From contig CAWDZM010000001.1 of assembly GCA_963807165.1 (NCBI GenBank), positions 507,590 to 571,589 on the forward strand: 64,000 bases of DNA, read 5' to 3'. The notes beneath the pieces are model-generated. The model did not search any database and was not told the origin of the DNA. It saw only the letters and a list, made by a program, of their open reading frames with translations. The position numbers and the translations under genes are program-made. This stretch comes from an uncultured bacterium. GTDB taxonomy: Bacteria; Patescibacteriota; Minisyncoccia; UBA6257; 2-01-FULL-56-20. This document shows positions 25,471 through 49,688 of the stretch, piece by piece (the stretch's first letter is position 1; every line of letters starts with the position of its first letter).

Positions 25471-25562
25471 CCAGCGCGACCACAACCCACTATGGTGCCC
25501 GAACCCAACAACACCGGGCACCATACTTTTATCACTATGAACAAACCCTATCCAAATAATGT

Positions 25563-25955
25563 TTGATCTCGCGCTCGACCGGCCTCGCCATCGGGAGTTT
25601 TTCGATTATCTGGCGGAAATTACTTAACGACATCCCGCGGCTGCGCAAAAATATCGGCGAGTATGTTCCCTATCCCATAAGCCGCGCATTGACGTGCGGA
25701 TTCTGTTTTACTTATTGGCTTTCACTCGGATCGCTGCTCATTTTTAACCCGCTGAGTGGCTGGCTTCCTCCCCTGCAAGCTATCATTCCTGCCGGATTCT
25801 CCCCTTTTATTTATATTTGTTTTTCTTGGATGGTCCTCGGTTTCGTTGCACTTCTTTGGCGATCACTCTTTGTTATCATCCAAGAACTTATTGACTATCA
25901 AATGTATACATGGAACAAACAATTCCATCCTATTGATCACGGGCATAAGCACTGA
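25563..25955 (+). CDS. hypothetical membrane protein
   Basis: 130 aa with 3-4 hydrophobic helices. Last gene before the AT-rich island. Confidence 0.3.
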   Translation: MISRSTGLAIGSFSIIWRKLLNDIPRLRKNIGEYVPYPISRALTCGFCFTYWLSLGSLLIFNPLSGWLPPLQAIIPAGFSPFIYICFSWMVLGFVALLWRSLFVIIQELIDYQMYTWNKQFHPIDHGHKH

Positions 25956-26042
25956 TCGAAGATTATGGAGGCGGGAGTCCGTTATATAAATAAATTTTCA
26001 CCAATCCCTACTTGGCAGCAACCAGCAATGCCTTCATCTCTT

Positions 26043-26288
26043 TTATTCATGTATAAAAAATTGGCCGATAAACGATCCGCATTTGGGGCAGGTATTTGCC
26101 AAATAACTTTCATTTAAAGTTTTGCTGAATTTCTTTTCAATCAAGACTCCTGCGTCCCTTGCAAATCCAAGTTCGCTTTCAGTAAAAGTTTCTGGCCCAG
26201 ATATCCCGATCATGGCAATTTTCATCGGAGCACTACAGGCTCGGCATTTGGATTCAACAATTTCTATTTGATGACTTGTATTCTCCAT
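26043..26288 (-). CDS. hypothetical small zinc-ribbon protein
   Basis: 81 aa with CRAC...CPKC; last gene of the minus-strand operon. Confidence 0.3.
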   Translation of the reverse strand: MENTSHQIEIVESKCRACSAPMKIAMIGISGPETFTESELGFARDAGVLIEKKFSKTLNESYLANTCPKCGSFIGQFFIHE

Positions 26289-26294
26289 AGTGAT

Positions 26295-27080
26295 TTAGAC
26301 TACATATTTACCTGCGTGCAATTGTTTTGATTCTTGCGGCGTAGCATAAAAAACATTTGTCCCCTTTCTGATGGTAACTCTTCCATCGTAGTGATAGACA
26401 TCTTTGCGATTCCAAGGCGGAATTAGGATTACCATAATCGTATGACCGACGATTTGTTTTTCTACAATTCTAACGGAGATGGATGGAGAGATTTGATTCC
26501 GAATACTATTTTGTAAAGACTGATCTAAAATCTGACGCTTTTTGTCGGAATCACCAATAGTTCCATCATCTTCTATCCCATAAAATATGAGTCCTCCTAG
26601 CTTGGTATTTGCGAAGGCACAAATCTCCTTTGATAAAACCTTCATCTCTACTCCGACTTGTTTAAACTCGTATATCTGATCTTCTCCATGGTTACAAATA
26701 TCTAAAATCTCTTGCTCCGAGGGTAAATGTATGCCGGAGCTGTTGTCCCTGGTAGAATTTTTTCTTTCCTTAGGAGAAGTCCGCGCTGTTTTTGTGTGGT
26801 CTTTTAAAACCGATTTACTCAGATGTTTCAAAATCGGGTTCTTCTCATAAATAATCGAATTCGCTTTTTTAACGACCCCTTTTTCATCGGTAACGGCTCT
26901 GATAATCTCCATATCTTTCATTGCCGCTAGATCATCTAGCGTCGCAGAAAACGGCCGCCCACTCTTTACGGATATTTCTTTAGCCGAAAGCTTACCGTTT
27001 ACCAAATCGAATGTAGCCTCTCTTTTAGGAGAATTACCAAATAATATTCTCGCCCTACTAACAAGTTCTTGAAGGTCCAT
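26295..27080 (-). CDS. AlbA_2 / Schlafen-like (divergent AAA) DNA-binding domain protein
   Basis: C-terminal DQIYEFKQ...KEICAFANTKLGGLIFYGIEDDGTI matches the AlbA_2 pattern E.K...A.aNt.GG.l..Gv.d.g. Confidence 0.45.
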   Translation of the reverse strand: MDLQELVSRARILFGNSPKREATFDLVNGKLSAKEISVKSGRPFSATLDDLAAMKDMEIIRAVTDEKGVVKKANSIIYEKNPILKHLSKSVLKDHTKTARTSPKERKNSTRDNSSGIHLPSEQEILDICNHGEDQIYEFKQVGVEMKVLSKEICAFANTKLGGLIFYGIEDDGTIGDSDKKRQILDQSLQNSIRNQISPSISVRIVEKQIVGHTIMVILIPPWNRKDVYHYDGRVTIRKGTNVFYATPQESKQLHAGKYVV

Positions 27081-27084
27081 ATTT

Positions 27085-27603
27085 TTATGGAATTAATGTC
27101 GTAATCGTTGCTGTTTGGTCTAAAAAATACATTAACTGCCGAACATCTTGATAGAGGACGTCTATTCTTTTTTGATCATTCTTATTAGGAAAATTCATAT
27201 GAGCAACAATATTTCTTGGCAAACGGATAGCGTCTATTTTGACTAACCATTGGTCTATATCCGGAACAACAGTTCTTAAAAGATGAGCGCTTGTGCGTGC
27301 GATCTCATTAAGATCATACAAATCAGTGTAGTAAATATCGTGCCTTCCGGGTTTAGAATGCCACGGTCGAGATGCATACATAGGTTTAAATCCATTGATC
27401 TTTCTTTGCATGGTTGGATCAACAACTAAAGCCCACCAACCATTTCCAAGTTGAGCTAGCAGAATAGAATGGATCAGAACTCTATAATAATTTTCGACGG
27501 CATATAACTTCCAGTAAGCTCCACGGCCGATGCCCAATCCACTCTTTCTTACATTTTCCAGCGTAAAACCGGAAAGAGTTCTGAAGTCTTGAATCGCAGC
27601 CAT
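27085..27603 (-). CDS. HEPN-domain protein, Abi_2 (AbiD/AbiF)-like
   Basis: LPRNIVAHMNF contains the HEPN R-x4-H motif in the RN..AH form seen in Abi_2-type abortive-infection proteins. Confidence 0.4.
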   Translation of the reverse strand: MAAIQDFRTLSGFTLENVRKSGLGIGRGAYWKLYAVENYYRVLIHSILLAQLGNGWWALVVDPTMQRKINGFKPMYASRPWHSKPGRHDIYYTDLYDLNEIARTSAHLLRTVVPDIDQWLVKIDAIRLPRNIVAHMNFPNKNDQKRIDVLYQDVRQLMYFLDQTATITTLIP

Positions 27604-27825
27604 TTAAGCTGTCCCTTTTTTCTTGGTCGATTTCTTCTTCTTGGTTTGATATATCAACGAAGCAATAGTCTGCCCCGAAGTTTCAAGATAATTTGCGATC
27701 TCCAAGTTGTTGAATCCGGCAAGATTTAAAATTCGAACCTTTTCGGCCATATTGGATCCCTTTAAAGAATTCAAAAGAATCATCACTAAAAGACTTTCGA
27801 TTCTGTCTGTATCACTTTCTTTCAT
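27604..27825 (-). CDS. small HTH protein, paralog 5 of a tandem array
   Basis: 73 aa; C-terminal RILNLAGFNNLEIANYLETSGQTIASLIYQTKKKK (sigma70-r4/LuxR-like HTH plus Lys tail). Confidence 0.45.
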   Translation of the reverse strand: MKESDTDRIESLLVMILLNSLKGSNMAEKVRILNLAGFNNLEIANYLETSGQTIASLIYQTKKKKSTKKKGTA

Positions 27826-27832
27826 ATTTTTA

Positions 27833-28045
27833 TTATTTCTTTTTCGATCCCCTCGACCCTAACGCTCGAACTGTTGCCGGAGTAGTATTGAGGATTTGGG
27901 CAATCGTGTCGTTATCTAAGCCAGCCAACCTTAAAAGATATACTCTTTCAGTAATGCTTTTCTCGGAAGCGACTTGCAAGCCAAGAACTTTCAAAATCTT
28001 CTCCAATACATCTATTATTTTTTCTTGATCCGTGAGTTTTGCCAT
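27833..28045 (-). CDS. small HTH protein, paralog 4 of a tandem array
   Basis: 70 aa; VYLLRLAGLDNDTIAQILNTTPATVRALGSRGSKKK. Confidence 0.45.
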   Translation of the reverse strand: MAKLTDQEKIIDVLEKILKVLGLQVASEKSITERVYLLRLAGLDNDTIAQILNTTPATVRALGSRGSKKK

Positions 28046-28056
28046 TTAATATTGTC

Positions 28057-28260
28057 TTATTTTTTCTTCGACTTTTTTGATTGATTTAAAAGACTGGAAG
28101 CGGCATTACTTGGTATATCAAGAATGTGAGCGATTTTTGCTATTGAAAAGCCGACTTCAGAAAGCTCGGCGGTAATTTCTGTTTTTGTCTTACTTCCTTT
28201 AAAGCCCCACGCTAAAATGCGGCACACATCTTCAAGAGAAAATTCTTCTTGATCCTTCAT
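28057..28260 (-). CDS. small HTH protein, paralog 3 of a tandem array
   Basis: 67 aa; ELSEVGFSIAKIAHILDIPSNAASSLLNQSKKSKKK. Confidence 0.45.
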   Translation of the reverse strand: MKDQEEFSLEDVCRILAWGFKGSKTKTEITAELSEVGFSIAKIAHILDIPSNAASSLLNQSKKSKKK

Positions 28261-28261
28261 G

Positions 28262-28495
28262 TTATTTTTTCTTATTTTTCCTGATGGCGTGCAAGGCCAC
28301 GTTCACAGTATTTGGAGTGGTTCCCAAAAGTTCGGCTATCCTCTTAGGCTTAAATCCCACAGAATCCAGTTCTTTAATTAAAGTAACTTGCCCCGTCCCC
28401 CGCTTGAGCCATACAGTAAGAAGCTTCACCACCTCTTCCGAAAATATCTGATTGGTTTGTTCCATTGTTTTATTTTTGTTTACGAGCTCTTTCAA
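28262..28495 (-). CDS. small HTH protein, paralog 2 of a tandem array
   Basis: 77 aa; ELDSVGFKPKRIAELLGTTPNTVNVALHAIRKNKKK. Confidence 0.45.
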   Translation of the reverse strand: MKELVNKNKTMEQTNQIFSEEVVKLLTVWLKRGTGQVTLIKELDSVGFKPKRIAELLGTTPNTVNVALHAIRKNKKK

Positions 28496-28742
28496 GAGCT
28501 TTTTGAACGGCTGACAATTTTTTACCAGTAAGTTCTGCTATCTCGACTGACTTCAATCCTGCACTGGCGAGGAGGAGTTCGAGCTTAGGAGCTTGGCTTC
28601 TGTCCACTTCTCCAAGTTCTCTGTTTCTACTGTCAATTAAAAGAGAAGCTATCACAGCAAGCTTTTTTTCTATGTTTTTTAATGTTTCTGCTTCGTTCAT
28701 TGTAAAATAATTAGTGAATTTACCGACATTTTTTCCCATCAA
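28470..28742 (-). CDS. small HTH protein, paralog 1 of a tandem array
   Basis: 90 aa; LLLASAGLKSVEIAELTGKKLSAVQKALERARKQK. First gene of the operon. Confidence 0.45.
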   Translation of the reverse strand: MMGKNVGKFTNYFTMNEAETLKNIEKKLAVIASLLIDSRNRELGEVDRSQAPKLELLLASAGLKSVEIAELTGKKLSAVQKALERARKQK

Positions 28743-28969
28743 ACCTTATTCTATATAGGTTTCTAAAGATGATATGTCCATCTCCACTAATTGTCAAACA
28801 GCAAAAATCAATGGAATTTACAATAAAAGCTCATTATCTTATAGTTAAGCGAGTCACGCGTCGCAGATGCGATCAGAAGAGTAAATCAAACGGTAAGAAA
28901 AGAAACTGGGATTGAGGAACTTATCCACCACGAAAAATCAAACTTCTGGATAAGATAGAATTCCGATAT

Positions 28970-30511
28970 TTACTTTAACGTGTCCTTCACAACTAACGGC
29001 TCGCGCCCTTCTATAAATTTGTCGTATCCAAATTCTCGATACGTTTTAAAAATAAGCATCTGCTCCTTTGTCTCAAGATCTCTTCCGGGAAAATCTCGCT
29101 TGATATTTGAGGCGTCTTCGTCCGAAATAATCCTCTGTGCGATTTGTCCAATAACGCCATCGCCTCTTTTATAATTTGTGCCCACATTCATACCGGCTCC
29201 ATTTGCGAATGGAGCCTTCGCGCGGAAGGCTGTCGCCTCAGAAAGATAGTTCAACGCTATCTTTCTAAAAATGAATTTCGTAAAGATCTCATTGCCGTAC
29301 TTCCCTACTTTAATCGATCCATCTATTACCATAGCAACGTCGACGAGCGCCTTATCAAAAAATGGGCATCGTATCTCAACCGTATGTCGCATTGCCATCT
29401 TATCAATCCTCATAAGATTTCCCCTCGACATGGACTTTAAAAGTGCCTTGCATCCTTCGTTGATTCGAAGAGGATTAATATCAAGAAATTCATTATATCC
29501 CCCAAATATTTCATCAATGCCTTCTCCAGTAAGCACAATTTTAAATCCCAGATCATGGGCATATTTTGAAAGTATATTGTTTGCGAAGGAGTGGCGAACA
29601 ATATTTGGATCGTAGCTTTCGACAAAATAGATAATATCCGACAGTTCCGCTTCATAATCAATTTTGGGCTCGATAGATTTATATTTCCATCCTTTCTCTT
29701 CGCACAACTTAAGAGCGCTGATGTAATCCGGAGAATCTTTTTCTCCGAGGATAAGAGCCGTAACGTCACCGTGAAAACGCGACGCTAATTCCATAACCAT
29801 ACTGCTATCCACGCCGCCACTCAAAAATATGGCGATCGGAAGATCGGTTTGAACTCTTTTAAACACGGCCTGTTCAATAAGATGCTTTAGTTCATCAAGG
29901 TTAATATCTTTAACCTCTCCGATTTTGATTTCATAATATGAAACGAATTTGCCCTTATAGAAATAGTGCCCCGGAGGAAATTCGTGAATCTCATTCAAAT
30001 CTTCAAAGCAAACAAGCGCCTTAATCTCTGACGCAAAAAACATCGTTCCGTCTTCATCATAAGCGTAATAGAGCGGCTTAACTCCGATGCGATCACGTGC
30101 CGCGAAAATTTCTCCGCTTGTCTTGTCAAAAATAATGAAGGCGAACATTTCGGAATCCAACTCAGAGATCAGCGCCTCCTTTTTATCTTCCCAAAGGTGG
30201 GTTAACACTTCCGTATCTCCATGAGTCCTAAATACATGCCCCTCCCCCTTTAACCTTTCGGCGATAGCACCGAAATTAAAAATCTCGCCATTTAGAATAG
30301 CAAAAATCGTTCCGTCTTCATTCTGCTGAGGCTGTTGCCCGAAGGCTTCATCAACGATAGCGAGCCGATTTGCGCCGAGAGCCACATGATCCAAAACGAG
30401 GTGCTCAAATTGATGCTGAGGCTCGCCCCGGTGAGATATCTTAGACAACGATAAGCGGAGTTTTTCCTCTTTACCATCTGCAGTTCCGACAATAGCGACG
30501 ATGCCACACAT
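28970..30511 (-). CDS. asnB: asparagine synthase (glutamine-hydrolysing) family protein
   Basis: N-terminal MCGI (Ntn nucleophile Cys2), glutaminase domain, and the SGGVDSS PP-loop of the synthetase domain; 513 aa. Confidence 0.8.
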   Translation of the reverse strand: MCGIVAIVGTADGKEEKLRLSLSKISHRGEPQHQFEHLVLDHVALGANRLAIVDEAFGQQPQQNEDGTIFAILNGEIFNFGAIAERLKGEGHVFRTHGDTEVLTHLWEDKKEALISELDSEMFAFIIFDKTSGEIFAARDRIGVKPLYYAYDEDGTMFFASEIKALVCFEDLNEIHEFPPGHYFYKGKFVSYYEIKIGEVKDINLDELKHLIEQAVFKRVQTDLPIAIFLSGGVDSSMVMELASRFHGDVTALILGEKDSPDYISALKLCEEKGWKYKSIEPKIDYEAELSDIIYFVESYDPNIVRHSFANNILSKYAHDLGFKIVLTGEGIDEIFGGYNEFLDINPLRINEGCKALLKSMSRGNLMRIDKMAMRHTVEIRCPFFDKALVDVAMVIDGSIKVGKYGNEIFTKFIFRKIALNYLSEATAFRAKAPFANGAGMNVGTNYKRGDGVIGQIAQRIISDEDASNIKRDFPGRDLETKEQMLIFKTYREFGYDKFIEGREPLVVKDTLK

Positions 30512-31267
30512 ACATCGATTTTATCAGTTTGATCGGGATTAATGCAACCTGAAACATCGTTTTGAGCGCGACTCATTCTGACTCGCGCTGTTTCATAGCC
30601 TGACATATTAGGCTGGTCGAGAAGCCTATTTAAATGTCACTACTTCCTGAACAAAAGGTCGAGCAAACCGAGCCCTTCGCGGAGCTCTACGATTATATCC
30701 GAATAATCGCAAGTATATGCGAAGGGCTCAATCAAACTAATGGAAATAAAGAAAGAACCCAAGATGGAGAAGAACGATTACTACGAAGCTCCAAGCCAAG
30801 TTCTGATAAATCCCCCATCACAGTCTTCTTACCCACGACGTCAAAGAGCTACTCAATTGCTCGACCACGTGGGCGTTGAAAACAATGAGGATACTGGAGG
30901 CCCTAGGGCTAGTCAGGATAGGCTCGAGCGATGATAACTTCAATGAAAGCTATATCGTTCTCAAGACAGAATTTGACTGGCTTTTCGCAGTCGATCCCAA
31001 CGCTGACCCGAACGAGAGGCCGATGGTTTAAACAAAATCCGACCCTGTGTATACGACAACTATCTCACATACGCAGGGTCGAATCGAGTTGAAAGATCAC
31101 AATAATAAAAAAATACATGAAAACGAAAACCGAAATAAAAATAAAGCTCGATATGACACGTTTAATGCTCATACGCGACCAGTCCAAGATTGAAACTCTA
31201 CGCTGGATGTTGAACGAAGATGAGGAAATGATCCGCGAGGCAGTTACGCTCGCGGCAGAAAACCCTG

Positions 31268-31320
31268 ATAAATGATTTATATATTCAGCTTAAACTAATG
31301 GCGGTAATGTCCTGATGACA
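31268..31320. repeat. ~53-nt direct repeat, copy 1
   Basis: aaatgatttatatattcagcttaaactaatggcggtaatgtcctgatgaca is ~85 percent identical to 33068-33120. Confidence 0.6.
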
Positions 31321-31335
31321 TAGAAAATACAAAAT

Positions 31336-32901
31336 CTAAAGCTGAATCCCCGGCCCCTGACCACCTCCGATATTGATGCCTATCGGTCCATTGGGTGGCG
31401 CGATTTCTTGGAATGGAACTCCTAAGAACGTGGCTACTTGATTGGCGATTGCAACTTCCTTTCCAGAGCCTCCCATCATTACTGCTGGGCCAATAGACAT
31501 ACTTGAAGAGCTATTTTGATGGTCTAAGGGCAGCTCCTGTCCGCTTTTAAAAACAATGACCGATTGTGAGACGAGCACCTGACGAGGCATGGAGACACCC
31601 CTTTCTGAGGAGGCATTATTGTTTTCCATCTTCCATGACTTCCTTGTTTCAATACGCAGGACATCCGCAACTGCATAGGTCGCCGCGCTTCCCCCAATCA
31701 GGCGCTTAGTTTGATAATTGATTTGCCCGCTGGTCTTATTGGCGTCTACCGTTATAGATGCACTTAAGAATATAAGTGCGAGGCCGACAATAAACACTCC
31801 GATGGCAATCCAGAGAGCAACGGAAGGAGAGAATTGTGAATAGAATGCGACACCGATACCAACAAGAACGAGTACGATTCCCGCTATAATCCCTTTTGCA
31901 TCACCTTCCTTGAGCACCAACTCGTCTGCGGTCTGACTGACTATTTTCATAATTATTGTTGTTTGAAAGTTAATGTAGCTTCGTTCGAGGTTGACCCTTG
32001 CATGATCTGAATGTTTGTTATGGTCATTGTCATAACCGACCACCGTCGCCGGTTGATTAATATTGAGCGCTACTGTGGCACTCTGTCCCGTTGCATGATT
32101 CGTCACCGTCATCGTAACTTGGGAGATGTGCACAGCGCTTACATTAAACTCAAGATTATTAAACTTCGCATCGCTCGGCGCGGTAAGAGTTGCGGTACCG
32201 CCATAGACCTGCGCGAGACCACTTGCCGGAGTAGTCGTTACATTAATATTGGTGTTACTAGGAGTAGACTTTGAGGTGCAATTTCCCGGAGTAAAAGCAT
32301 TAACACTGATAGATCCTTTCGACCAATTAGTGAGCAGTGAGACGAGGACACTCGGCGTAAAGGTGCAAACACTCGTCTGCCCCGCAGACTGATTTGCTTC
32401 ACCTTGCACCTCCTGCTGGGCCTGCGCCGCAGTCAATCCTTGTGCTTCCGCTCCAGATAAGAATTGTGATGTTACGATTCCTGTCGCGCTTACGGCATCA
32501 TCGGAGAAGATGCACTCGCCCGACCCATTTGACCCTTTTATAGCAAGTTGCGATTTAACGCTTTCAGCGAACAGCGTTGAAACATCAATGGTTCCTGTAA
32601 ATGCAACGGTAGCTGGAGAACATTTTTGAGCGGCGGCGATGAAGCAGTTCATGTTGGCACCGCAAGCGCCTGAGGTGGGACTTGTTTTCGTCTGCGTGGT
32701 GGTCGGAGTTTTTGCAACGGCAACGGGAGCAGTCGACGTTGGCAAGGTTGACGTGCTATTGATAGATGGCAAATGCGGCACAAGCGTACTCAAACTAGTT
32801 CCACGAAAATGGTAAAGCGAGAGCCCTAAAACGACTAGGCAAACTAGGATTAAGGCACCAGCACCCAAGAGAACGGGGTCTACAAATCCTTTTCGACTCA
32901 T
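31336..32901 (-). CDS. hypothetical membrane protein with a Thr/Ser-rich extracytoplasmic region
   Basis: N-terminal TM, a T/S-rich linker, a second pair of TM helices near residues 340-385, and a Gly-rich C-terminus. Confidence 0.35.
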   Translation of the reverse strand: MSRKGFVDPVLLGAGALILVCLVVLGLSLYHFRGTSLSTLVPHLPSINSTSTLPTSTAPVAVAKTPTTTQTKTSPTSGACGANMNCFIAAAQKCSPATVAFTGTIDVSTLFAESVKSQLAIKGSNGSGECIFSDDAVSATGIVTSQFLSGAEAQGLTAAQAQQEVQGEANQSAGQTSVCTFTPSVLVSLLTNWSKGSISVNAFTPGNCTSKSTPSNTNINVTTTPASGLAQVYGGTATLTAPSDAKFNNLEFNVSAVHISQVTMTVTNHATGQSATVALNINQPATVVGYDNDHNKHSDHARVNLERSYINFQTTIIMKIVSQTADELVLKEGDAKGIIAGIVLVLVGIGVAFYSQFSPSVALWIAIGVFIVGLALIFLSASITVDANKTSGQINYQTKRLIGGSAATYAVADVLRIETRKSWKMENNNASSERGVSMPRQVLVSQSVIVFKSGQELPLDHQNSSSSMSIGPAVMMGGSGKEVAIANQVATFLGVPFQEIAPPNGPIGINIGGGQGPGIQL

Positions 32902-33067: not shown

Positions 33068-33120
33068 TTATAAACGATTTATATATTGCCGTAAAACTAA
33101 TGGCGGCAATGTCCTAATGA
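33068..33120. repeat. ~53-nt direct repeat, copy 2
   Basis: aaacgatttatatattgccgtaaaactaatggcggcaatgtcctaatgacc. It overlaps the stop codon of the 196-aa gene. Confidence 0.6.
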
Positions 33121-33704
33121 CCACTAACCTTGGTCGAAGCTAATGTTATCTCTTTGCGTGTCGCTTTTAGAAGAGCCTTTATAAAGGAAACCGCTTGATC
33201 GAGTTTGGGCGAATCCAGACGAGTCTGCGGTTCTTGTCTGACATAGTACTTACCATCTCTAACTGCATCCGTGAAAAACTCTAGAACCTCAGGAGGCTCT
33301 TTATTAAATGCACTTTTATATAGACGGGACAGGTTATGAGTTTTAATTGTTTTAGAAAGCCGAGGAGACCCATTGTGATCACTCACGGGTTTTATAACTC
33401 CTTTCAAAATCAACAATGATTTTAGAGCACATTCTAATGAAGCTCCATACCACATTAAAATTGGTTGCCTCATTCCTAGTAAATAGGGATTTATAATTTG
33501 CTTCTTTAAGGCTTTAGACTTCGGCGACATCGCCGATTCTTGAATTATTCTCCATCTCTCATGCGCTGATTCATACTTATGATGAAGTAAATCCGCTATA
33601 GCCTCATTGGCTTTTGAATTAGAGATCCAAACAAGATAATCAGAGGCCCACTTCCGATATTCATCATCCATAAATGTCTGAAGTTTGGTCTTTTCCATAT
33701 GCAC
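33114..33704 (-). CDS. hypothetical protein (last gene of the candidate defence operon)
   Basis: 196 aa, no confident motif; starts 14 nt after the GIY-YIG gene. Confidence 0.3.
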   Translation of the reverse strand: MHMEKTKLQTFMDDEYRKWASDYLVWISNSKANEAIADLLHHKYESAHERWRIIQESAMSPKSKALKKQIINPYLLGMRQPILMWYGASLECALKSLLILKGVIKPVSDHNGSPRLSKTIKTHNLSRLYKSAFNKEPPEVLEFFTDAVRDGKYYVRQEPQTRLDSPKLDQAVSFIKALLKATRKEITLASTKVSGH

Positions 33705-33718
33705 AGGGTCAGATTCGG

Positions 33719-34216
33719 TTAAAGGCTGGCTGTGATCTTCTTATAGATACTCTCAGCAATTTTTGCTTCGGTTTTATCAGCTTGATGAAAATGGATCTCC
33801 GTCTGATATTTCGGCCACTTACCTGTTTTATTCCTAATGAGATATACCACTTCCGCCTCGATAGCTTCGGTTCTCTCCTCACTGGAAAATTCAAAAACAA
33901 ATAGGTCTATCTCCCTTGAGTGAGTCTTTGTCGCCAAAGACTTCCAAGCGTAGCCGTGATAGCCATTCTTCCCTGAAGCAGTTAGGCCATTTCTAAACCG
34001 ATTACTAAGAGTCATCTTGGTAATCCCCACATAAAGGATCTCCTTTCCTTGCTTGAGAATATAAATCTTTGGATCTCTACTATTCGCAGATCCCCACAAA
34101 CCTTCTTTATAATCACCGACCTGCTTAATAAAAGATACCTTCGCACTACTCGCTTTTCCTTTAAGGAAGGTCAGGCCCCTAAGGCGAATTTTAAATTGTA
34201 GATGTTTGTCTTTCAA
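33719..34216 (-). CDS. GIY-YIG nuclease-domain protein
   Basis: KIYILKQGKEILYVGITKMTLSNRFRNG carries the GIY...YVG motifs and the conserved R. A downstream E (EAEVVYLIRN) completes the fold. Confidence 0.5.
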   Translation of the reverse strand: MKDKHLQFKIRLRGLTFLKGKASSAKVSFIKQVGDYKEGLWGSANSRDPKIYILKQGKEILYVGITKMTLSNRFRNGLTASGKNGYHGYAWKSLATKTHSREIDLFVFEFSSEERTEAIEAEVVYLIRNKTGKWPKYQTEIHFHQADKTEAKIAESIYKKITASL

Positions 34217-34249: not shown

Positions 34250-34834
34250 CTAAATCCCGTCTTTCGGCTGAGAAAAATGCAATTCTTTTGGTAAGAATGA
34301 ATTCAACTCATCGTCACTAAAGGTCAGTTCTTCGTTTATTTTGAGTGCTTTTTGTGCCGCTTTGTAAGCTTTTGAAGTAGTTTGAGGAGCGAATTTATAA
34401 ATTAACCCAGCCTCCTGAGCTAGGCGATCTCTTTGTTTTATTAACTCGTGAGAATCAATTGAATCGCTTTTTATATCAGCCAATAAATTAATATACTTCT
34501 CTCTAATAAGCCAAAGCTCTTTCGCCGTTTGACGATGTTTCCCAGCTCTTTCATCTGGATCGAAACTTAATTGAAATATAACAAATGCTAATGTAAGCGC
34601 AGAAAGAATGGAGCTTACATATTTGAACACCTCCTGACTTGAAATCAGATCCACAAGAATCGACGATGTCGTTAACGTAGTAAGAAGTATATTTATCCAT
34701 TTCACTATGCCAGCTTTTCCGCTTTCAATCTCTGCGGCTTTCTCATGAGTTTTTTGTGTATAGGCAACTCTCCCAAAAGACTCCCTAACCACCTGTAGAT
34801 TAATTTTATCCATAATTTTAATAGGTGTTTCCAA
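34250..34834 (-). CDS. 2-TM protein, SLATT-like candidate effector
   Basis: 194 aa with two adjacent TM helices (WINILLTTLTTSSILVDLI, VSSILSALTLAFVIFQL) then a helical C-terminal region. The gene overlaps the NTase gene by 17 nt. Confidence 0.4.
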   Translation of the reverse strand: METPIKIMDKINLQVVRESFGRVAYTQKTHEKAAEIESGKAGIVKWINILLTTLTTSSILVDLISSQEVFKYVSSILSALTLAFVIFQLSFDPDERAGKHRQTAKELWLIREKYINLLADIKSDSIDSHELIKQRDRLAQEAGLIYKFAPQTTSKAYKAAQKALKINEELTFSDDELNSFLPKELHFSQPKDGI

Positions 34835-36155
34835 TAGGAACTAGTATCCGGTCCATGGCAACACACTTACCATCACTAATAATATAGCACTCTACATAAT
34901 GCTCGCCATGATACTTTGTCCGTTCCTCTTTTTCTTCCAACCCACGATCATCGCTAATCTCTCCCCTAAGATCTCCTGCGATCCTAGCTTCTTCCCCGAA
35001 ATTTCTAACTTTCCACTTAATTGAATAATTATTGGGAAGCCTTCTTTCTCGGATCGCAAAAGTGAGTTTTTTACTTTTTTTAAGCATATATCTTTTTCTT
35101 AAAAAATCACTTAACCAACCTGGCTGAAACCCCGCCTGAATGATTTGAGTATCGATTTTCACTCTATAAGAATCATCCAATTCAAATGGGACGCCATATT
35201 TTCTCTCAAGGAATTCCTCTGTTTGCGCCGGATATCGCTTCCGTAGTTCTATTACCTTATCATTTATATTTTCCTCAACGTCGTAAGACTTTGGAAAATC
35301 ATCACCAAAGACCTTTTTCCATTCATCCGAAGCATTTTCTAATTCTGAGTTAACCTCGTATTGAACAGCTTTACTTGCTCTCTGTGATGCAGTTTCAGCT
35401 TTACTTTTCCAAGCTTCGCCCACATTAAACAACTCCCCCGCTCCTGAAATCAACATTGTATTTGCCTGCGAAAGAAGATATTTAAAAAATCCGTCCATTA
35501 ATCGCGAATAGCTTTCTTCAATTTTCGATTGATCTAAACTTTCCAAGTAATTTAAAACCACGGTTTCAATAAGAAATGACTTCAATTCGACACTGCAGTA
35601 ATCGGCCCACTTCTTAGAAATCCTAATTAGATTTAATGTCTTACCTGTCTTTTTATTTGATTCTCTAATTTTTTGCATTTCCGAAACAGGATCAAAAACC
35701 TCCCACGACCCTCCATTTTCGGTATTAGGTATCCTGAACTTCCCATCAGACAATGCCCAAGCCGGCAATAATTCTACGCTATGAGTTCCATCAGAGAACC
35801 CTACAACAACAACTTTGCCAAAGGCCCTTATTTCCTCAGTGGTTGTATATGCACCTTTTAATTGCAACCGAATTTCTTGCAACAATTGCGATTGCTTATT
35901 ACCAGAAAGATTATTGTAGGCTTCGAATTGATCTTCTGGCATCCTAAATAAGACATCCACATCTCGTGGAGGCCTTATGTTCGTTAGCTTCCCATACGAA
36001 CCAATTAAAAGTTTTGTAGATCCATCATATTTAATGTTTGGATAAAAATGGTCATGCAAAACTTCGCAAACGCCATTATATTTTATGCGAGCATCCTCTG
36101 CCTGCCTGTCTGTGAGGGCTATATTTTCTAATAGCTTTTTAAAATTGCTATCCAT
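34818..36155 (-). CDS. SMODS / CD-NTase-like minimal nucleotidyltransferase
   Basis: IGSYGKLTNIRPPRDVDVLF (GS...DxD) and VVVGFSDGTHSVELLPAW (third acidic residue in an hD..Pa context): the Pol-beta-like signature of cGAS/DncV-like NTases. 445 aa. Confidence 0.5.
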   Translation of the reverse strand: MDSNFKKLLENIALTDRQAEDARIKYNGVCEVLHDHFYPNIKYDGSTKLLIGSYGKLTNIRPPRDVDVLFRMPEDQFEAYNNLSGNKQSQLLQEIRLQLKGAYTTTEEIRAFGKVVVVGFSDGTHSVELLPAWALSDGKFRIPNTENGGSWEVFDPVSEMQKIRESNKKTGKTLNLIRISKKWADYCSVELKSFLIETVVLNYLESLDQSKIEESYSRLMDGFFKYLLSQANTMLISGAGELFNVGEAWKSKAETASQRASKAVQYEVNSELENASDEWKKVFGDDFPKSYDVEENINDKVIELRKRYPAQTEEFLERKYGVPFELDDSYRVKIDTQIIQAGFQPGWLSDFLRKRYMLKKSKKLTFAIRERRLPNNYSIKWKVRNFGEEARIAGDLRGEISDDRGLEEKEERTKYHGEHYVECYIISDGKCVAMDRILVPIGNTY

Positions 36156-38957
36156 TTAGACTTCTATCTCTTTTCTTATTTTTTCAATACGAGCCTTTAA
36201 TTTACCATCTCTTTTCAGGTCCTTAGAGATTTTCTCGAAAGCGTATATAACCGTTGTGTGATCTCGCTTAAAGGTTCTGCCAATAGAAGGGAAAGACAAT
36301 TCCATCCCCTCCCTCATCAGATACATAGCTAATTGCCGTGCCTTTACAACTTCCGCCCACCTCCCTCTCTGAACGAGATCATCCTCTGAAACTCCATAGA
36401 GCTTCGCTGTTTTTTGAATGATAGAATCCACTGCAGATGACATATGAGCCTCTTGCTCTTTAATGTAGTCATGCTTCTCCTCTCCTTTTTCTTTCCCTGC
36501 AACCTCCTCATCCTTGCCATATTTTTTTGCTAAGGCATTATTTATAATCTGCCTTACTCTTTCTCGTGTTATGGAATATTTCTTCGCAATTTCCTCTAGT
36601 GTATGTGGATATTGATCATTAAGTCCAAATCTCATTTCAACCATAAGACCTTCTCTCTCCTCCATGCCATCGGTAATATCCTTATCGCTAACTACCTGAT
36701 CAGCAGTCAATGCTTTTAATTGTTTTTCTCTCTCAATGACTAAGGATTCTTTTTCCTCCACGAAATGCTTATAGATAGCGGCGCCATACTCCCATTTTTT
36801 TTGAGCAATGTAATAAAGGAGGTCGTAATCAGATCTTTTCGGCAACACACCTTTTTGCATGGCTTCTGGTATGGCAACATTAAGTGATTCACTCAATATA
36901 ATTTCCGCTAAATAGAGCTGGCCAGTTTGAGATTTTACGACTTCGCTCTTTCGAGGATTCTCCCCGAAATATCTTATGTTTATAGGATGATTAGGATTTA
37001 TAAGAATAAATCCGCAGGTTGGGCTTTCTGGATGATGATCATAAAATGCTTGGAATGGCATCGTAACCTTTTCATCAAAACTCCACCCTCGAAATTTACC
37101 ACTCAGAGAACTTGGCTTTTTGGGGATCCTATCGACGACATCAATCCTTGCTTGGGCCCTATATTCTTTGCAGGTCGCTTCAATAATTCCCGATTCTCCA
37201 ATTTGCTCTCCGGAAAAAATCACTGGCACCCTTGCAACTATACTGTTCCTATGATGACCTACGGCCAGCGTAACCTTGGTCTTTTTTAATTTAATATGCT
37301 CATTTGAACTGGTAAAAACTATTTTATCTCCATTTTTTATTAATCGCGCGTCAATATACAAAATCAACTTACTCTCTCTGTTGGCAACAATTCTCGTATA
37401 GTCAGGATGAAATTCTAAACCATTCCCAGGATAAAAAATCCCTTCTTTTATAACAGAAACAACAACCGACGACTTCCTTTGTTCGTGCGTTGCTTCTAGG
37501 GTATCAACTACTCCGACCTCGTTGCCAAGTATAGTGATTGTTTTAATTAAAATATCGTCGTTGCTATCGCCTGGATCCTCAACCTTGATAGAGTCGGGAG
37601 TAAAGCCTATGTTCTTTCTAAAAGCAGTAATTTTTACGATCGATCCAGGCTTTATTATCCTAGTGTCGATGGCTAGTTGCATACTATATTTTTTGTTCAC
37701 AGTTACAGCCATCTGGCTCCTCGCAAACTCCAATCCACCTGCAGGCCTTTTGTCACTAACAACACGAATAGTGCCATAGGCATCTTCGCCTGTGAGCTGA
37801 GAATATAACTTATTAAGCTCGTCGAAGGCTAACTTCTGTTTCTCTTGGACGGCCTCCGAAAGACCCCCTTCATCTACATGGTTTCTACCTTTGCTAATAA
37901 TGGGGTACAACCATTTTTTTACTATTGCCTCTAGTTGTTTATAAAATTCATGTTGAGTATTAAATCCATCTCTAGTATCTAAGAGTACTTCCTCCGGATT
38001 CTTTTTCTTATTTATTTTGTCTTTAATAATTTCTCGAGCTCCTTTTAATTTGAGAAAACCATAATACTTATCCGTTCCGGGAAAATTGTCCAATCCAAAA
38101 AACGTTTGATCATAAATTGTTTCTTCTTCGTCGTGAACAAGTAATCCATTTTCCCGCTCATCCCCAGCAACCGCCAAAGCTTCCTTTGATCTATAAAGGT
38201 TGGCCTCAATTTCGACTGGGGCATAATCTTCAAATTGCATCGAAAATGTTTGATGATCTACTGGCTCACCCTCAGGGAATTTATACCTAACAGCGGATTG
38301 CCTCATCCGTCCTTTTAGGTCCGTATACTGAAGCAGGACATGTCGAGTGTCATTTGAATTAATCAGTCTAAGCATATAAAAAACACTCAGCCTATTAGCT
38401 AAATTTTCAAACTCATATAGATGAGCATCTTCATCCGCAACAAATTCAACTATTGTTCCACGAGTAGAGTTAAGCTCCCATTTCTGTGCCGTTTTAGTAG
38501 CATCCCCCGGTACCGCATTTACATTTATAAACCGCTTATCGTCTCTTTCATAAAACTCGCAGGTGGAAGCCTCTCCGTTCTTTATGGTCTTAATAATCCC
38601 CTCAGAATGATAAAAAAGAACGTCTGAGATTCCCTGGCCGAAAAGACCTCTGACAGCATATCCTTCATATGCTCCACTTTTTTCAGCTCCGTAAACCTTA
38701 AACTTTTTCTCGAGATCGCTTTTGCTCATCCCCTCCGCATTATCAATAATTCGAACTAAACGGCTCTTTCTATTTACTTGTATAGTGATAGAACCAATGT
38801 CCGTTTTACCTCCTTCTCCCTTGGCGGAAAGAATGCGGTAGCTATCGTCCGAATTTGTGATGGGTTCGGTAAGCGTTTTTAAAATACTCTTTCCAACAGC
38901 GTTGGAACTTTTGCGCTTTAAATATCTATTATCAATAGTTACTTCAATCTCAGACAT
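36156..38957 (-). CDS. GHKL-ATPase fused to sigma70-region-4-like and DnaA-domain-IV-like HTH domains
   Basis: N-terminus has LTEPITNSDDSY (N-box E..NS.DA), IIDNAEGMSKSD (DxGxG) and RGLFGQGISDV (G2 box). Near residue 740: EREGLMVEMRFGLNDQYPHTLEEIAKKYSITRERVRQIINNALAKKYG (sigma70 r4.2 pattern). C-terminus: VSEDDLVQRGRWAEVVKARQLAMYLMREGMELSFPSIGRTFKRDHTTVIYAFEKI (DnaA C-terminal HTH). 933 aa. Confidence 0.55.
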   Translation of the reverse strand: MSEIEVTIDNRYLKRKSSNAVGKSILKTLTEPITNSDDSYRILSAKGEGGKTDIGSITIQVNRKSRLVRIIDNAEGMSKSDLEKKFKVYGAEKSGAYEGYAVRGLFGQGISDVLFYHSEGIIKTIKNGEASTCEFYERDDKRFINVNAVPGDATKTAQKWELNSTRGTIVEFVADEDAHLYEFENLANRLSVFYMLRLINSNDTRHVLLQYTDLKGRMRQSAVRYKFPEGEPVDHQTFSMQFEDYAPVEIEANLYRSKEALAVAGDERENGLLVHDEEETIYDQTFFGLDNFPGTDKYYGFLKLKGAREIIKDKINKKKNPEEVLLDTRDGFNTQHEFYKQLEAIVKKWLYPIISKGRNHVDEGGLSEAVQEKQKLAFDELNKLYSQLTGEDAYGTIRVVSDKRPAGGLEFARSQMAVTVNKKYSMQLAIDTRIIKPGSIVKITAFRKNIGFTPDSIKVEDPGDSNDDILIKTITILGNEVGVVDTLEATHEQRKSSVVVSVIKEGIFYPGNGLEFHPDYTRIVANRESKLILYIDARLIKNGDKIVFTSSNEHIKLKKTKVTLAVGHHRNSIVARVPVIFSGEQIGESGIIEATCKEYRAQARIDVVDRIPKKPSSLSGKFRGWSFDEKVTMPFQAFYDHHPESPTCGFILINPNHPINIRYFGENPRKSEVVKSQTGQLYLAEIILSESLNVAIPEAMQKGVLPKRSDYDLLYYIAQKKWEYGAAIYKHFVEEKESLVIEREKQLKALTADQVVSDKDITDGMEEREGLMVEMRFGLNDQYPHTLEEIAKKYSITRERVRQIINNALAKKYGKDEEVAGKEKGEEKHDYIKEQEAHMSSAVDSIIQKTAKLYGVSEDDLVQRGRWAEVVKARQLAMYLMREGMELSFPSIGRTFKRDHTTVIYAFEKISKDLKRDGKLKARIEKIRKEIEV

Positions 38958-38960
38958 ATT

Positions 38961-39608
38961 TTATTTAAAAATGGTTTCGAATCTAATTTCAACCCACACA
39001 AGAAATTCTTTTGCTTCGTTATCAGTAGACGAACTCACGGACTGTCTAAGTTGTTTAATATAATCCGCTAAAACATACTTCGGAGTATACGGAACTGCTT
39101 TCAAGAATGAAAGAATCTCGTATTCCGTAACTTCACGATTTCCGTTTTGCCACTTAAGGAAAAGGCCAGTTTTTTTTATCTCTAGAACATCGTCCATAGG
39201 AGATCTACCACGAGACCTTTTAGCCGTTGTTTTAGCCTCTCTCTGTTGATTGGGATGATTTAATAGATCGCGAGTTTGTCTTCCTATCTCTTTTCCAACT
39301 TCAGTAAGAAAGAAGCCATTTTCCAAATTCCCAGTTGCCCAATTTTTCCTCTTCGGGTCCACTAACCTTCGCAATGATTTACTGATTCTATTTGTATCCG
39401 GATACTCGGAAAAACTTGCCATCGAAAATTTCTTGGGAAACAGTTTAAAGAGCGCAACCGCCATATAATCAAAATATAGAGGGACCTTCAGCTCCTCTAG
39501 TGTCATCGACGCAAAAGCAGACAATCTATCAAGATCTAAATTCTCATACGATACTGGATCGAATGGCTTTAATTCTTCGATGCTCTTTTTGATATTAATA
39601 TCCGTCAT
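38961..39608 (-). CDS. hypothetical protein (operon gene 2)
   Basis: 215 aa, basic central region, no motif recognised. Coding supported by the 4-nt ATGA overlap with the upstream gene. Confidence 0.3.
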   Translation of the reverse strand: MTDINIKKSIEELKPFDPVSYENLDLDRLSAFASMTLEELKVPLYFDYMAVALFKLFPKKFSMASFSEYPDTNRISKSLRRLVDPKRKNWATGNLENGFFLTEVGKEIGRQTRDLLNHPNQQREAKTTAKRSRGRSPMDDVLEIKKTGLFLKWQNGNREVTEYEILSFLKAVPYTPKYVLADYIKQLRQSVSSSTDNEAKEFLVWVEIRFETIFK

Positions 39609-49542: not shown

Positions 49543-49688
49543 ATGCGCTCCCCCATGCATACTTGCATGTTTAGTAGCCTTCGATAAGGCTGCCGCTATT
49601 ATACCATACGCAGTGCTATAATTAAAGGGTACAAAAAACGCAGCCAAAGGTCGAAGACTGAAACGATAACCAGAATTTAATCTCTACT

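What the first reader, a model, noticed from the sequence alone, without database searches (positions are those of the whole stretch)
26043..27603. HEPN (Abi_2-like) plus AlbA_2/Schlafen-like gene pair downstream of the HTH array
The 172-aa protein has the HEPN R-x4-H motif in the RNIVAH form typical of AbiD/AbiF-type abortive-infection proteins. The next gene encodes an AlbA_2/Schlafen-like domain (EFKQ...AFANTKLGGLIFYGIEDDGTI). Genes are 4 nt apart and lie in the same operon as the five HTH genes and a terminal zinc-ribbon ORF. A HEPN RNase plus Schlafen-like nucleic-acid-binding combination in a mobile island is a plausible abortive-infection or toxin module. This exact pairing with an HTH array is not one I recognise.
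Basis: partly seen in the sequence, partly recalled or inferred. Interest (0 to 1): 0.65.

Follow-up and report, generated by a model that had tools for sequence, protein, structure and literature searches.

The report
Two RNase cassettes behind HTH array
The HEPN and Schlafen-like genes are real and probably both cut RNA, but each normally travels with its own set of tiny DNA-binding-type proteins, and this operon is two such cassettes nested together in a mobile defence island, a layout not found in the defence catalogue or papers searched here.

Summary
Eight minus-strand genes, 0-11 nt apart, lie behind one strong promoter-like site: five small HTH genes (H5-H1), a 172-aa HEPN protein, a 261-aa wHTH+Schlafen/AlbA_2 protein and an 81-aa zinc-ribbon ORF.

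The HEPN+AlbA_2 pair is not the conserved unit. In 45 of 46 genome loci from many phyla the HEPN gene follows two orthologous HTH genes in fixed order (H2-H1-HEPN) and never an AlbA_2 gene. In about 80 metagenome loci the AlbA_2 gene follows 1-4 HTH genes, mostly H4/H5-type. Only one other locus repeats the full layout. The window therefore carries an H2-H1-HEPN cassette nested in an H5-H4-H3...AlbA_2 cassette, at the edge of a ~23-kb low-GC island with CBASS, next to tmRNA and serine recombinases.

Most likely these are toxin-antitoxin or abortive-infection-type modules, with the HTH proteins restraining the RNases. That function is inferred, not shown.

The parts
28769..28797 (-). Promoter-like site (TTGACA-17 nt-TATCAT) for the eight-gene operon, in the 230-nt gap between the asnB-like gene and H5.
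   Evidence: 11 of 12 consensus matches, the best in the 5.9-kb scan. This is a consensus match only; promoter-like sites in the region as a whole are no more frequent than in shuffled sequence.
28470..28739 (-). H5, small HTH protein (89 aa from the ATG; a TTG one codon upstream is possible). This is the first gene of the AlbA_2-type HTH set.
   Evidence: Sub-threshold Pfam Sigma70_r4_2 hit (24.3 bits against 25.7). The L048 orthologue is 47% identical. H5-type genes precede AlbA_2 genes in metagenome loci; 18 of 77 HTH ORFs there match H5 best.
28262..28465 (-). H4, small HTH protein (67 aa from the ATG at 28465). This is the HTH type most commonly linked to AlbA_2.
   Evidence: 43 of 77 HTH ORFs in AlbA_2 loci match H4 best. 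H4-type genes also head the wHTH+c2 cassettes of Acidobacteriota loci.
28057..28260 (-). H3, small HTH protein (67 aa), the most divergent paralogue.
   Evidence: L048 has a gene of the same size at the same position, although BLASTP finds no similarity.
27833..28045 (-). H2, small HTH protein (70 aa). It is the conserved first gene of the H2-H1-HEPN cassette.
   Evidence: The second gene upstream of HEPN is H2-type in 43 of 44 loci. Pfam Sigma70_r4_2 scores 25.4 bits, just under the cut-off.
27604..27825 (-). H1, small HTH protein (73 aa) with a Lys-rich tail. Its stop codon abuts the HEPN start codon.
27085..27603 (-). HEPN-172, a short divergent Swt1-like (Abi2/Swt1 clade) HEPN protein and predicted RNase. 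Key residues are E37, N38, R41 and R130-N131-x3-H135.
26295..27080 (-). wHTH (about residues 1-90, ArsR-like) plus Schlafen/AlbA_2 domain (residues 133-242). Predicted nuclease with an E133-x4-E138-x-K140 triad.
   Evidence: Pfam SLFN_AlbA_2, 6e-20. (triad invariant in 41 sequences). (profile hits to the SLFN11 N-domain at 9e-6 with E..EFK aligned, to CbCash, and to ArsR/SmtB-type regulators over residues 16-95). Searches give the catalytic triad of prokaryotic Schlafen tRNases.
26043..26288 (-). 81-aa zinc-ribbon-like ORF (CxxC...CxxC). It is the last gene of the operon and an accessory specific to this locus.
   Evidence: Only weak Zn-ribbon Pfam hits. No homologue in any of about 127 related loci. 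It is absent from the otherwise collinear L048. The GC content rises to host level just downstream.

Best explanation
The finding is part of an eight-gene operon assembled from two independently mobile cassettes of one design: a run of small sigma-region-4/LuxR-class HTH proteins followed by a nuclease effector.

- Cassette 1 is H2-H1-HEPN172, in which two orthologous HTH proteins in fixed order precede a short Swt1-like HEPN RNase.
- Cassette 2 is H5-H4-H3 followed by the wHTH-Schlafen (AlbA_2) protein.
- Here, and in one other known locus, cassette 1 sits inside cassette 2, between H3 and the Schlafen gene. An orphan Zn-ribbon gene is appended at the end.
- The operon lies at the edge of a ~23-kb low-GC genomic island that also carries a CBASS system and sits next to tmRNA and two serine recombinases.

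The architecture is shown by the data. The mechanism below is inferred. I propose that these are toxin-antitoxin or abortive-infection-type modules. The HEPN dimer and the Schlafen domain would be RNases (general RNA and tRNA respectively) that are toxic when free. Their cognate small HTH proteins would hold them in check, most likely by direct binding, and probably also by repressing the operon promoter. Phage infection, or loss of the island, would deplete or displace the HTH proteins and release the RNases.
For: Architecture:
- Tight operon behind one promoter-like site.
- H1-type gene adjacent to HEPN in 44 of 45 loci and H2-type second in 43 of 44, across Acidobacteriota, CPR, Nitrospirota, Chloroflexi, Proteobacteria and archaea. 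Gaps are mostly -4 to +20 nt.
- Genes downstream of HEPN in other loci are unrelated housekeeping genes, so HEPN ends the cassette.
- The AlbA_2 gene is preceded by small HTH genes, mainly of H4/H5 type (61 of 77 HTH ORFs), and by none of them in 21 of 61 scorable loci.
- L048 repeats all seven genes in the same order at 47-64% identity. It is also a 38%-GC block in a ~50%-GC contig.
- L130 stacks 74-74-HEPN_Swt1(272 aa)-72-74-HEPN173. L029 stacks three HTH genes, a wHTH, c2, then H2-H1-HEPN.

Effector activity:
- Invariant HEPN catalytic residues, HEPN fold and HEPN_Swt1 relatives.
- Invariant Schlafen E-E-K triad, matching the E-D-K triad shown to be catalytic in the tRNase CbCash (PMC13462974).

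HTH proteins acting at the protein level:
- The nested H2-H1 pair is kept with HEPN although only 11 nt separate H3 from H2. That leaves no room for a separate promoter or operator. The pair is retained in both composite loci and in the stacked loci.

Defence or mobile context:
- CBASS cyclase plus 2TM effector 7 kb away, in the same low-GC island next to serine recombinases and tmRNA.
- Neighbours in other loci include MTases, GmrSD_N, TA genes, PifA, R-M and ArdC.
- The HEPN family matches PADLOC candidate PDC-M34B.
- Neither family occurs on IMG/VR viral contigs.
Against: - No experiment supports toxicity, neutralisation or phage defence.
- No HTH-HEPN fusion or other direct evidence of protein-protein contact was found.
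- No conserved operator motif was found upstream of the cassettes.
- Many neighbours of the HEPN cassette are housekeeping genes, and PADLOC hits among 140 neighbours are scattered and partly generic ATPase matches.
- Two or three antitoxin-like proteins per toxin is not how classical type II TA systems are built.
- AlbA_2 proteins are often annotated as DNA-binding regulators.
Confidence: 0.5

Rival explanations
1. The small HTH proteins are purely transcriptional controllers, like the C-proteins of restriction-modification systems or regulators of a mobile element. They would set the timing and level of effector expression after transfer. The HEPN and Schlafen proteins would then be activated by some other signal, not by loss of the HTH proteins.
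For: The H1 model matches DNA-binding domains: sigma region 4, LuxR/GerE and DnaA domain IV. There are sub-threshold Sigma70_r4_2 hits and basic C-terminal tails. A single strong promoter-like site lies upstream of the array, with an imperfect inverted repeat around its -35 box. The Schlafen protein carries its own wHTH.
Against: The nested H2-H1 pair has no intergenic space for its own promoter or operator (11-nt gap), yet it is retained with HEPN in the window, L048, L130 and L029. No shared operator motif appears upstream of 42 cassettes. Two to five different regulators for a 2.7-kb operon is excessive for simple control.
Confidence: 0.25
2. The operon serves the mobile element itself rather than host defence. 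It would act as an addiction or stabilisation module, or a competitor-exclusion module, for the tmRNA-linked island, and the RNases would act only when the island is lost.
For: The operon sits at the very edge of a low-GC island next to serine recombinases and tmRNA. ArdC-like and MTase genes lie beside the cassette in other loci. L131 lies among classical TA genes. Distribution is patchy and cross-phylum.
Against: Mechanistically this rival overlaps the best explanation and differs only in the selective benefit. Most of the 46 genome loci show no obvious mobile-element genes within 8 kb, and the cassette often sits among housekeeping genes. The co-resident CBASS system points to a defence-island setting.
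Confidence: 0.15
3. One or both effectors are not nucleases here. The AlbA_2 protein would be a DNA-binding regulator, and HEPN-172 an RNA- or nucleotide-binding sensor. The operon would then be a regulatory gene cluster.
For: AlbA_2 proteins are commonly annotated as transcriptional regulators (source names). Some HEPN domains are non-catalytic (Anantharaman 2013, PMC3710099). The locus is dominated by DNA-binding-type domains.
Against: The catalytic residues of both domains are invariant across their families. The Schlafen triad matches the experimentally catalytic E-D-K triad of CbCash. Alternative genes in the equivalent positions include other HEPN proteins, and in the same array position two uncharacterised proteins (c2, c5) whose motifs look nuclease-like by eye only.
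Confidence: 0.1

Closest known systems
AbiF/AbiD (Pfam Abi_2) HEPN abortive-infection toxins with ncRNA antitoxin (PbAbiF 8vz6; C. difficile AbiF-RCd22, PMC12373285)
   Different: No Pfam Abi_2 hit even at E<=1. The protein is 172 aa, against about 300 aa for AbiF. There is no abiF RNA motif or any Rfam match in 25500-31400 at E<=1. The upstream partners are two small HTH proteins, not a repeat-containing ncRNA.
Swt1-like HEPN (Pfam PF18731) and PADLOC candidate system PDC-M34 (subunit B)
   Same: An exhaustive profile search links HEPN-172 to proteins of 177-279 aa (most about 255-270 aa) at E 1e-18 to 1e-26. All ten tested are HEPN_Swt1 members above the gathering score, and the three tested against PADLOC hit PDC-M34B at up to 5e-56. 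HEPN-172 itself hits PDC-M34B at 1.5e-19. The long forms are also preceded by small HTH genes (L125, L103, L130).
   Different: HEPN-172 lacks the ~110-aa N-terminal domain of the long forms and does not reach the Pfam model directly. No protein in any locus examined matches PDC-M34A. PDC-M34 is an unvalidated candidate whose definition I could not retrieve.
Prokaryotic Schlafen nucleases, e.g. CRISPR-associated Schlafen (Cash) tRNases (PMC13462974)
   Same: SLFN_AlbA_2 domain with a conserved E-x4-(D/E)-x-K catalytic triad. Both lie in defence-island contexts.
   Different: Cash fuses the Schlafen domain to a Csx15 cA4 sensor and depends on type III CRISPR. Here the partner domain is an N-terminal ArsR-like wHTH, and the gene follows an array of small HTH genes. 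None of the seven Schlafen clusters described in that paper has this architecture.
Type II toxin-antitoxin modules with HTH antitoxins, and HEPN-toxin TA systems (HepT-MntA, RnlAB)
   Same: Small DNA-binding-type genes lie immediately upstream of, and are translationally coupled to, a predicted RNase toxin. Distribution is patchy and horizontally transferred. L131 sits among classical TA genes.
   Different: There are two to three distinct HTH proteins per effector in a fixed order, and no known antitoxin family is detected. HEPN toxins characterised so far use MNT (AMPylation), RnlB or RNA as the antidote, not sigma-r4-like HTH proteins (from my own knowledge).

Membership tests
HEPN superfamily | All-alpha core with a conserved R-x4-6-H motif before the last core helix and a conserved polar residue in helix 1 | tested here: met
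Pfam Abi_2 (AbiD/AbiF) | Match to the PF07751 profile | tested here: not met
   No Abi_2 hit at E<=1. The only Pfam hit is a chance-level PhiKZ_gp86 match at 0.11.
Pfam Abi_2 (AbiD/AbiF) | Associated upstream ncRNA with abiF motifs (Rfam RF03085) | tested here: not met
   cmscan of 25500-31400 at E<=1 returns nothing. The H1 stop codon abuts the HEPN start codon, leaving no room for an ncRNA.
Swt1-like HEPN (PF18731) | Match to the PF18731 profile | tested here: inconclusive
   The direct hit is absent. However, all ten profile-search relatives tested (E 1e-18 to 1e-26 against the HEPN-172 profile) match PF18731 above the gathering score.
Schlafen / AlbA_2 nucleases | SLFN_AlbA_2 domain | tested here: met
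   PF04326, E 6.4e-20, 72.3 bits against a cut-off of 25.3, residues 133-242. Profile hits to the SLFN11, SLFN5 and CbCash structures.
Schlafen / AlbA_2 nucleases | Catalytic E-x4-(E/D)-x-K triad | tested here: met
   E133, E138 and K140 are invariant in 41 family members. They align with the E..EFK motif of the SLFN11 N-domain. CbCash E17-D22-K24 has been shown to be catalytic.
Schlafen / AlbA_2 nucleases | tRNA or RNA cleavage activity | not testable with these tools
   Needs biochemistry.
PADLOC candidate PDC-M34 | Both subunits A and B present | tested here: not met
   Subunit B matches at 1.5e-19. No PDC-M34A hit for any operon protein or for neighbours in related loci.
Type II toxin-antitoxin module | Small antitoxin gene directly upstream of, and coupled to, the toxin gene, conserved as a unit | tested here: met
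   H2-H1-HEPN is conserved in 43-44 of 45 loci with gaps mostly -4 to +20 nt.
Type II toxin-antitoxin module | Toxin is growth-inhibitory and is neutralised by binding of the antitoxin protein | not testable with these tools
   No complex prediction or experiment was available. No fusion proteins were found that would imply contact.
Sigma-70 region 4 / LuxR-type HTH (the small proteins) | Helix-turn-helix fold of that class | tested here: met

The most novel reading that the evidence does not exclude
Small sigma-region-4-like HTH proteins may be dedicated, cassette-specific protein partners (antitoxins or infection sensors) of nuclease effectors. The partnered effectors would be the Swt1-like HEPN and wHTH-Schlafen proteins, and perhaps the uncharacterised c2 and c5 proteins that occupy the same position. 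Together they would define a previously undescribed modular class of defence or addiction cassette, which stacks in tandem into long HTH arrays and is widespread in uncultivated bacteria and archaea (CPR, Acidobacteriota, DPANN-like contigs).
Probability: 0.3. Interest if true: 0.7.

Novelty: new variant of a known kind. Interest (0 to 1): 0.55.

Why it matters
If the HTH proteins really gate the RNases, this would be a new way of controlling HEPN and Schlafen effectors. Known controls are ncRNA (AbiF), AMPylation (HepT-MntA) and cyclic nucleotides (Cash, Csm6).

It would also explain the long arrays of tiny HTH genes seen in many of the metagenomic loci retrieved here, including two with an archaeal Orc1/Cdc6-like gene (identified by eye). 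In the related loci examined, these cassettes contain no complete known or candidate system detected by PADLOC; only the HEPN component matches a PADLOC model.

The cassettes are short, 0.9-1.5 kb, and easy to test. They offer a compact Schlafen-type putative tRNase and a minimal 172-aa HEPN protein for mechanistic work.

Even on the conservative reading, the correction matters for annotation. The functional units are H2-H1-HEPN and HTHn-AlbA_2, not HEPN+AlbA_2.

Tried and rejected
- **Direct profile hits for the HEPN protein.** Pfam, NCBIfam and PHROGs give none. A profile search against PDB sequences gives only a chance dynein hit.
- **Foldseek against the PDB** with the HEPN model finds nothing below E 0.3. 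The afdb50 library was unavailable.
- **AbiF-type ncRNA.** There are no Rfam hits in the region.
- **PDC-M34 partner A.** It was never found, and no paper mentions PDC-M34.
- **AlbA_2 or Zn-ribbon homologues in the 46 HEPN genome loci.** None. The Zn-ribbon ORF has no homologue in the 80 AlbA_2 loci either.
- **Viral origin.** The HEPN family is absent from IMG/VR, and the AlbA_2 family has only one distant hit there.
- **Shared operator motif upstream of 42 cassettes.** k-mer enrichment gives nothing convincing, and the upstream DNA is often coding. Repeats within the operon are only short A/T-rich matches from the Lys-tail codons.
- **HTH-HEPN fusions** among the top 150 profile hits: none.
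- **att-type direct repeats** between the island's left edge and the tmRNA side: none of 12 nt or more.
- **Homologue search with H1.** Only 3 hits, because the protein is too short for the E-value scale of the database.
- **c5 and c2 accessory proteins against the PDB.** Only weak ArsR-like hits to the c5 N-terminus and no meaningful (only chance-level) hits for c2. Their nuclease-like nature remains a guess from motifs.
- **Literature searches** for Swt1-like HEPN antitoxins or an AlbA_2+HEPN pairing gave nothing relevant.
- **Rejected idea: the asnB-like gene belongs to the operon.** It is separated by a 230-nt gap containing the promoter-like site and is absent from L048.
Full report
**1. 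What is in the sequence**

On the minus strand between 26043 and 28739 there are eight ORFs packed with gaps of 4, 1, 11, 7, 0, 4 and 6 nt:

| Gene | Coordinates | Size |
|---|---|---|
| H5 | 28470-28739 | 89 aa |
| H4 | 28262-28465 | 67 aa |
| H3 | 28057-28260 | 67 aa |
| H2 | 27833-28045 | 70 aa |
| H1 | 27604-27825 | 73 aa |
| HEPN-like | 27085-27603 | 172 aa |
| AlbA_2 | 26295-27080 | 261 aa |
| CxxC...CxxC ORF | 26043-26288 | 81 aa |

- A promoter-like site, TTGACA-17-TATCAT at 28797..28769, lies in the 230-nt gap after the upstream asnB-like gene. It is the best match in the region. No minus-strand terminator-like site interrupts the block.
- The block is 38.6% G+C against about 51-52% in the flanks.

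**2. The 172-aa protein**

- Pfam, NCBIfam and PHROGs give no HEPN or Abi_2 hit, even at E<=1. The only library hit is PADLOC PDC-M34B, at 1.5e-19.
- The protein belongs to a tight family of about 170-aa stand-alone proteins: 113 clusters at 40-59% identity, none with a Pfam annotation.
- E37, N38, R41, R130, N131, M136 and N137 are invariant. H135, the YWKLY segment and several Trp residues are at least 90% conserved.
- The AF2 model is confident (pLDDT 88, pTM 0.83) and all-helical.
- Foldseek against the PDB found nothing significant. The structural evidence is therefore moderate, not strong.
- The decisive link is by sequence. An exhaustive profile search finds 1040 representative proteins at E<=0.001 and 40 at <=1e-30, the latter being the 172-aa clade. 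The next tier is dominated by proteins of about 250-270 aa.
- I tested ten proteins from that tier (177-279 aa). All ten match Pfam HEPN_Swt1 above the gathering score. The three that were also tested against PADLOC match PDC-M34B at up to 5e-56.
- Anantharaman et al. 2013 place Abi2 and Swt1-like HEPN domains in one assemblage.
- Conclusion: this is a short, divergent, catalytically intact Swt1-like HEPN protein. "Abi_2-like" is close in spirit but wrong as a family assignment.

**3. The 261-aa protein**

- Pfam SLFN_AlbA_2 matches residues 133-242 at 6e-20.
- The family is large, with at least 395 clusters, and uniform in length at 261-268 aa.
- A profile of 41 members hits the SLFN11 N-domain (9e-6, with GEdqlyEFK aligned to PESQSIEFK), CbCash and SLFN5. 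Over residues 16-95 it hits ArsR/SmtB-type winged-helix regulators.
- E133, E138 and K140 are invariant. They correspond to the E-x4-D-x-K triad (E17, D22, K24) shown to be catalytic in the tRNase CbCash (PMC13462974).
- That paper describes seven clusters of prokaryotic Schlafen proteins. None has an N-terminal wHTH or a small-HTH array.

**4. The small proteins**

- H1-H5 are paralogues at 19-31% identity. They share a layout of an N-terminal helix, a three-helix HTH and a Lys-rich tail.
- Pfam Sigma70_r4_2 scores sit just under the cut-off for H2, H4 and H5.

**5. What is conserved elsewhere**

*HEPN family, 46 genome loci.*
- The taxa are mostly Acidobacteriota, but also Niyogibacteria, Saccharibacteria, Jorgensenbacteria, Nitrospirota, Chloroflexi, WOR-3, Rokubacteria, Proteobacteria, Aminicenantes and two archaeal MAGs.
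- The adjacent upstream ORF is H1-type in 44 of 45 loci that can be scored. The next one is H2-type in 43 of 44. Gaps are mostly -4 to +20 nt.
- No locus has an AlbA_2 or Zn-ribbon homologue.
- The gene downstream of HEPN is usually not tightly linked. Where it was examined it is unrelated: dienelactone hydrolase, M20 peptidase, GNAT, NAD kinase, OmpA, and once a type II MTase.
- H2-H1-HEPN is therefore a self-contained cassette.

*AlbA_2 family, 80 metagenome loci.*
- The gene is usually directly preceded by small HTH or wHTH genes; my HTH model detected none upstream in 21 of the 61 loci that could be scored.
- Those detectable with H1-H5 match H4 or H5 best in 61 of 77 cases.

*The composite layout.*
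- Only L048, a Logan contig, repeats the window's order H5-H4-H3-H2-H1-HEPN-AlbA_2. Its proteins are 47-64% identical, it has no Zn-ribbon gene, and it is again a 38%-GC block in a ~50%-GC contig.
- The window operon is best read as cassette H2-H1-HEPN inserted into cassette H5-H4-H3-AlbA_2.

*Stacking recurs.*
- L130 has 74-74-HEPN_Swt1(272 aa)-72-74-HEPN173, next to a Dam MTase and a GmrSD_N gene.
- L029 (and, from the gene maps, L028-L040 generally) has three small HTH genes, a 146-aa ArsR-type wHTH, an uncharacterised protein c2 and then H2-H1-HEPN, often followed by an ArdC-like gene.
- Eight loci carry a ~296-aa protein (c5) with a weak ArsR-like N-terminus beside the HEPN cassette; a ninth (L133) has a c5-like 301-aa gene directly downstream of HEPN.

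*How linked are the two effectors?*
- Eight of 82 AlbA_2 loci (81 retrieved loci plus the window) have some HEPN gene next to the AlbA_2 gene.
- These are HEPN-172 upstream (window, L048), long Swt1-like HEPN downstream or divergent (L125, L118, L119, L103), and a third 174-aa protein with LRNDLMH (L055, L056).
- A second-effector pairing is thus recurrent, but the two genes are not an obligate pair.

**6. Context in the window**

- The operon is the left edge of a low-GC region running to about 49 kb (42% against 52%).
- The region holds:
  - an asnB-like gene;
  - a CBASS cyclase (34818-36155, PADLOC Cyclase 5e-116) with a SLATT 2TM effector (34250-34834);
  - a 933-aa GHKL-ATPase/sigma-r4/DnaA-C protein;
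  - a LOOT RNA;
  - a DnaB_C-like gene;
  - two serine recombinases (47069-47812 and 47676-48953).
- The tmRNA gene lies just beyond the region, at 49236-49552.
- This supports the view that the operon lies in a mobile defence island.
- Neither effector family is found on IMG/VR viral contigs.
- Among 140 neighbours of HEPN cassettes in other genomes, PADLOC hits are scattered: MADS components, AriA-like ATPases, PifA, R-M and PsyrT. This is suggestive but not strong.

**7. Mechanism**

Shown:
- the cassette architecture;
- intact catalytic motifs in both effectors;
- the HTH fold of the small proteins;
- the island context.

Inferred:
- The effectors are RNases that are toxic when free. This is by analogy with AbiF (toxic, neutralised by ncRNA; PMC12373285) and Cash (a tRNase causing growth arrest).
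- The HTH proteins restrain them.

I favour a protein-level role, as antitoxin or adaptor, over pure promoter control. The nested H2-H1 pair has no room for its own promoter or operator, yet it is retained with HEPN in every stacked locus. This is an argument from conservation, not a test. I found no operator motif, no fusion and no ncRNA.

**8. Comparison and novelty**

- The nearest known systems are AbiF/AbiD, Swt1-like HEPN with PADLOC PDC-M34B, Cash-type Schlafen nucleases and HTH-antitoxin type II TA modules.
- The locus is a member of the HEPN and Schlafen superfamilies. It fails the tested defining features of Abi_2 (profile and ncRNA) and of PDC-M34 (no A subunit).
- The design [quoted passage not shown] is not a complete system by PADLOC's models (only the HEPN component matches, as PDC-M34B), and did not turn up in my literature searches.
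- I rate it a new variant of a known kind, namely RNase toxin modules. There is a fair chance, about 0.3, that it is a distinct modular class.

Noticed in passing
window 34250-36155 (minus strand); flanking unknown ORFs 33114-33704 and 33719-34216: A type I-like CBASS system: a SMODS+AGS_C cyclase (445 aa, PADLOC Cyclase 5e-116) followed by a SLATT_4 2TM effector (194 aa, 4.5e-67). Two unannotated ORFs lie downstream in the same low-GC block.
   Followed up: partly
window 36156-38957 (minus strand), plus 38961-39608: A 933-aa protein combining an N-terminal GHKL-type ATPase (HATPase_c_3), a Sigma70_r4 HTH and a DnaA C-terminal HTH. It has a weak PADLOC MzaA hit. It is preceded by a 215-aa ORF with no hits. 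This is an unusual architecture next to CBASS.
   Followed up: no
window 40014-40130 (+) and 40201-41112 (+): A LOOT RNA (Rfam RF03000, 84.7 bits) lies directly upstream of a DnaB_C-like helicase gene inside the island.
   Followed up: no
window 47069-48953 (+) and 49236-49552 (-): Two overlapping large serine recombinase genes (247 and 425 aa, each with its own Resolvase domain) lie next to the tmRNA gene. This suggests that the ~23-kb low-GC region from 26040 to 49000 is an island integrated at ssrA. No direct repeat of 12 nt or more was found between its two ends.
   Followed up: partly
window 27616 (H1 Lys-tail codons) and 32031; locus L047: An independent Logan assembly of the same sequence (99.97% identical) differs by two 1-nt deletions. 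One is in a T6/A6 run in the H1 tail and extends H1 to 91 aa, overlapping the HEPN gene. The other splits the 521-aa ORF at 31336-32901. These could be homopolymer sequencing errors or real variation.
   Followed up: partly
L130 4134-6522: Two HEPN cassettes in tandem: 74-74-HEPN_Swt1(272 aa), then 72-74-HEPN(173 aa). They sit beside a Dam-type MTase and a GmrSD_N fragment.
   Followed up: partly
L055 4743-5267 and L056 5072-5596: A third kind of small HEPN-like protein (174 aa, motif FRTLRNDLMH) lies directly downstream of the AlbA_2 gene. A 185-aa protein in the same position in L114 and L115 looks TIR/DUF4062-like by eye.
   Followed up: no
L096, L098, L113, L124 (metagenome loci): Long runs of alternating ~100-aa ArsR-type wHTH genes and ~90-110-aa small HTH genes surround the AlbA_2 gene and an uncharacterised 251-286-aa protein (cluster c8). 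In L064 and L112 an Orc1/Cdc6-like gene is nearby, suggesting archaeal mobile elements.
   Followed up: no
window 28970-30511 (minus strand): An asparagine synthase B-like gene (513 aa, low GC) sits inside the island immediately upstream of the HTH operon. It is transcriptionally separate and is absent from the collinear locus L048.
   Followed up: partly
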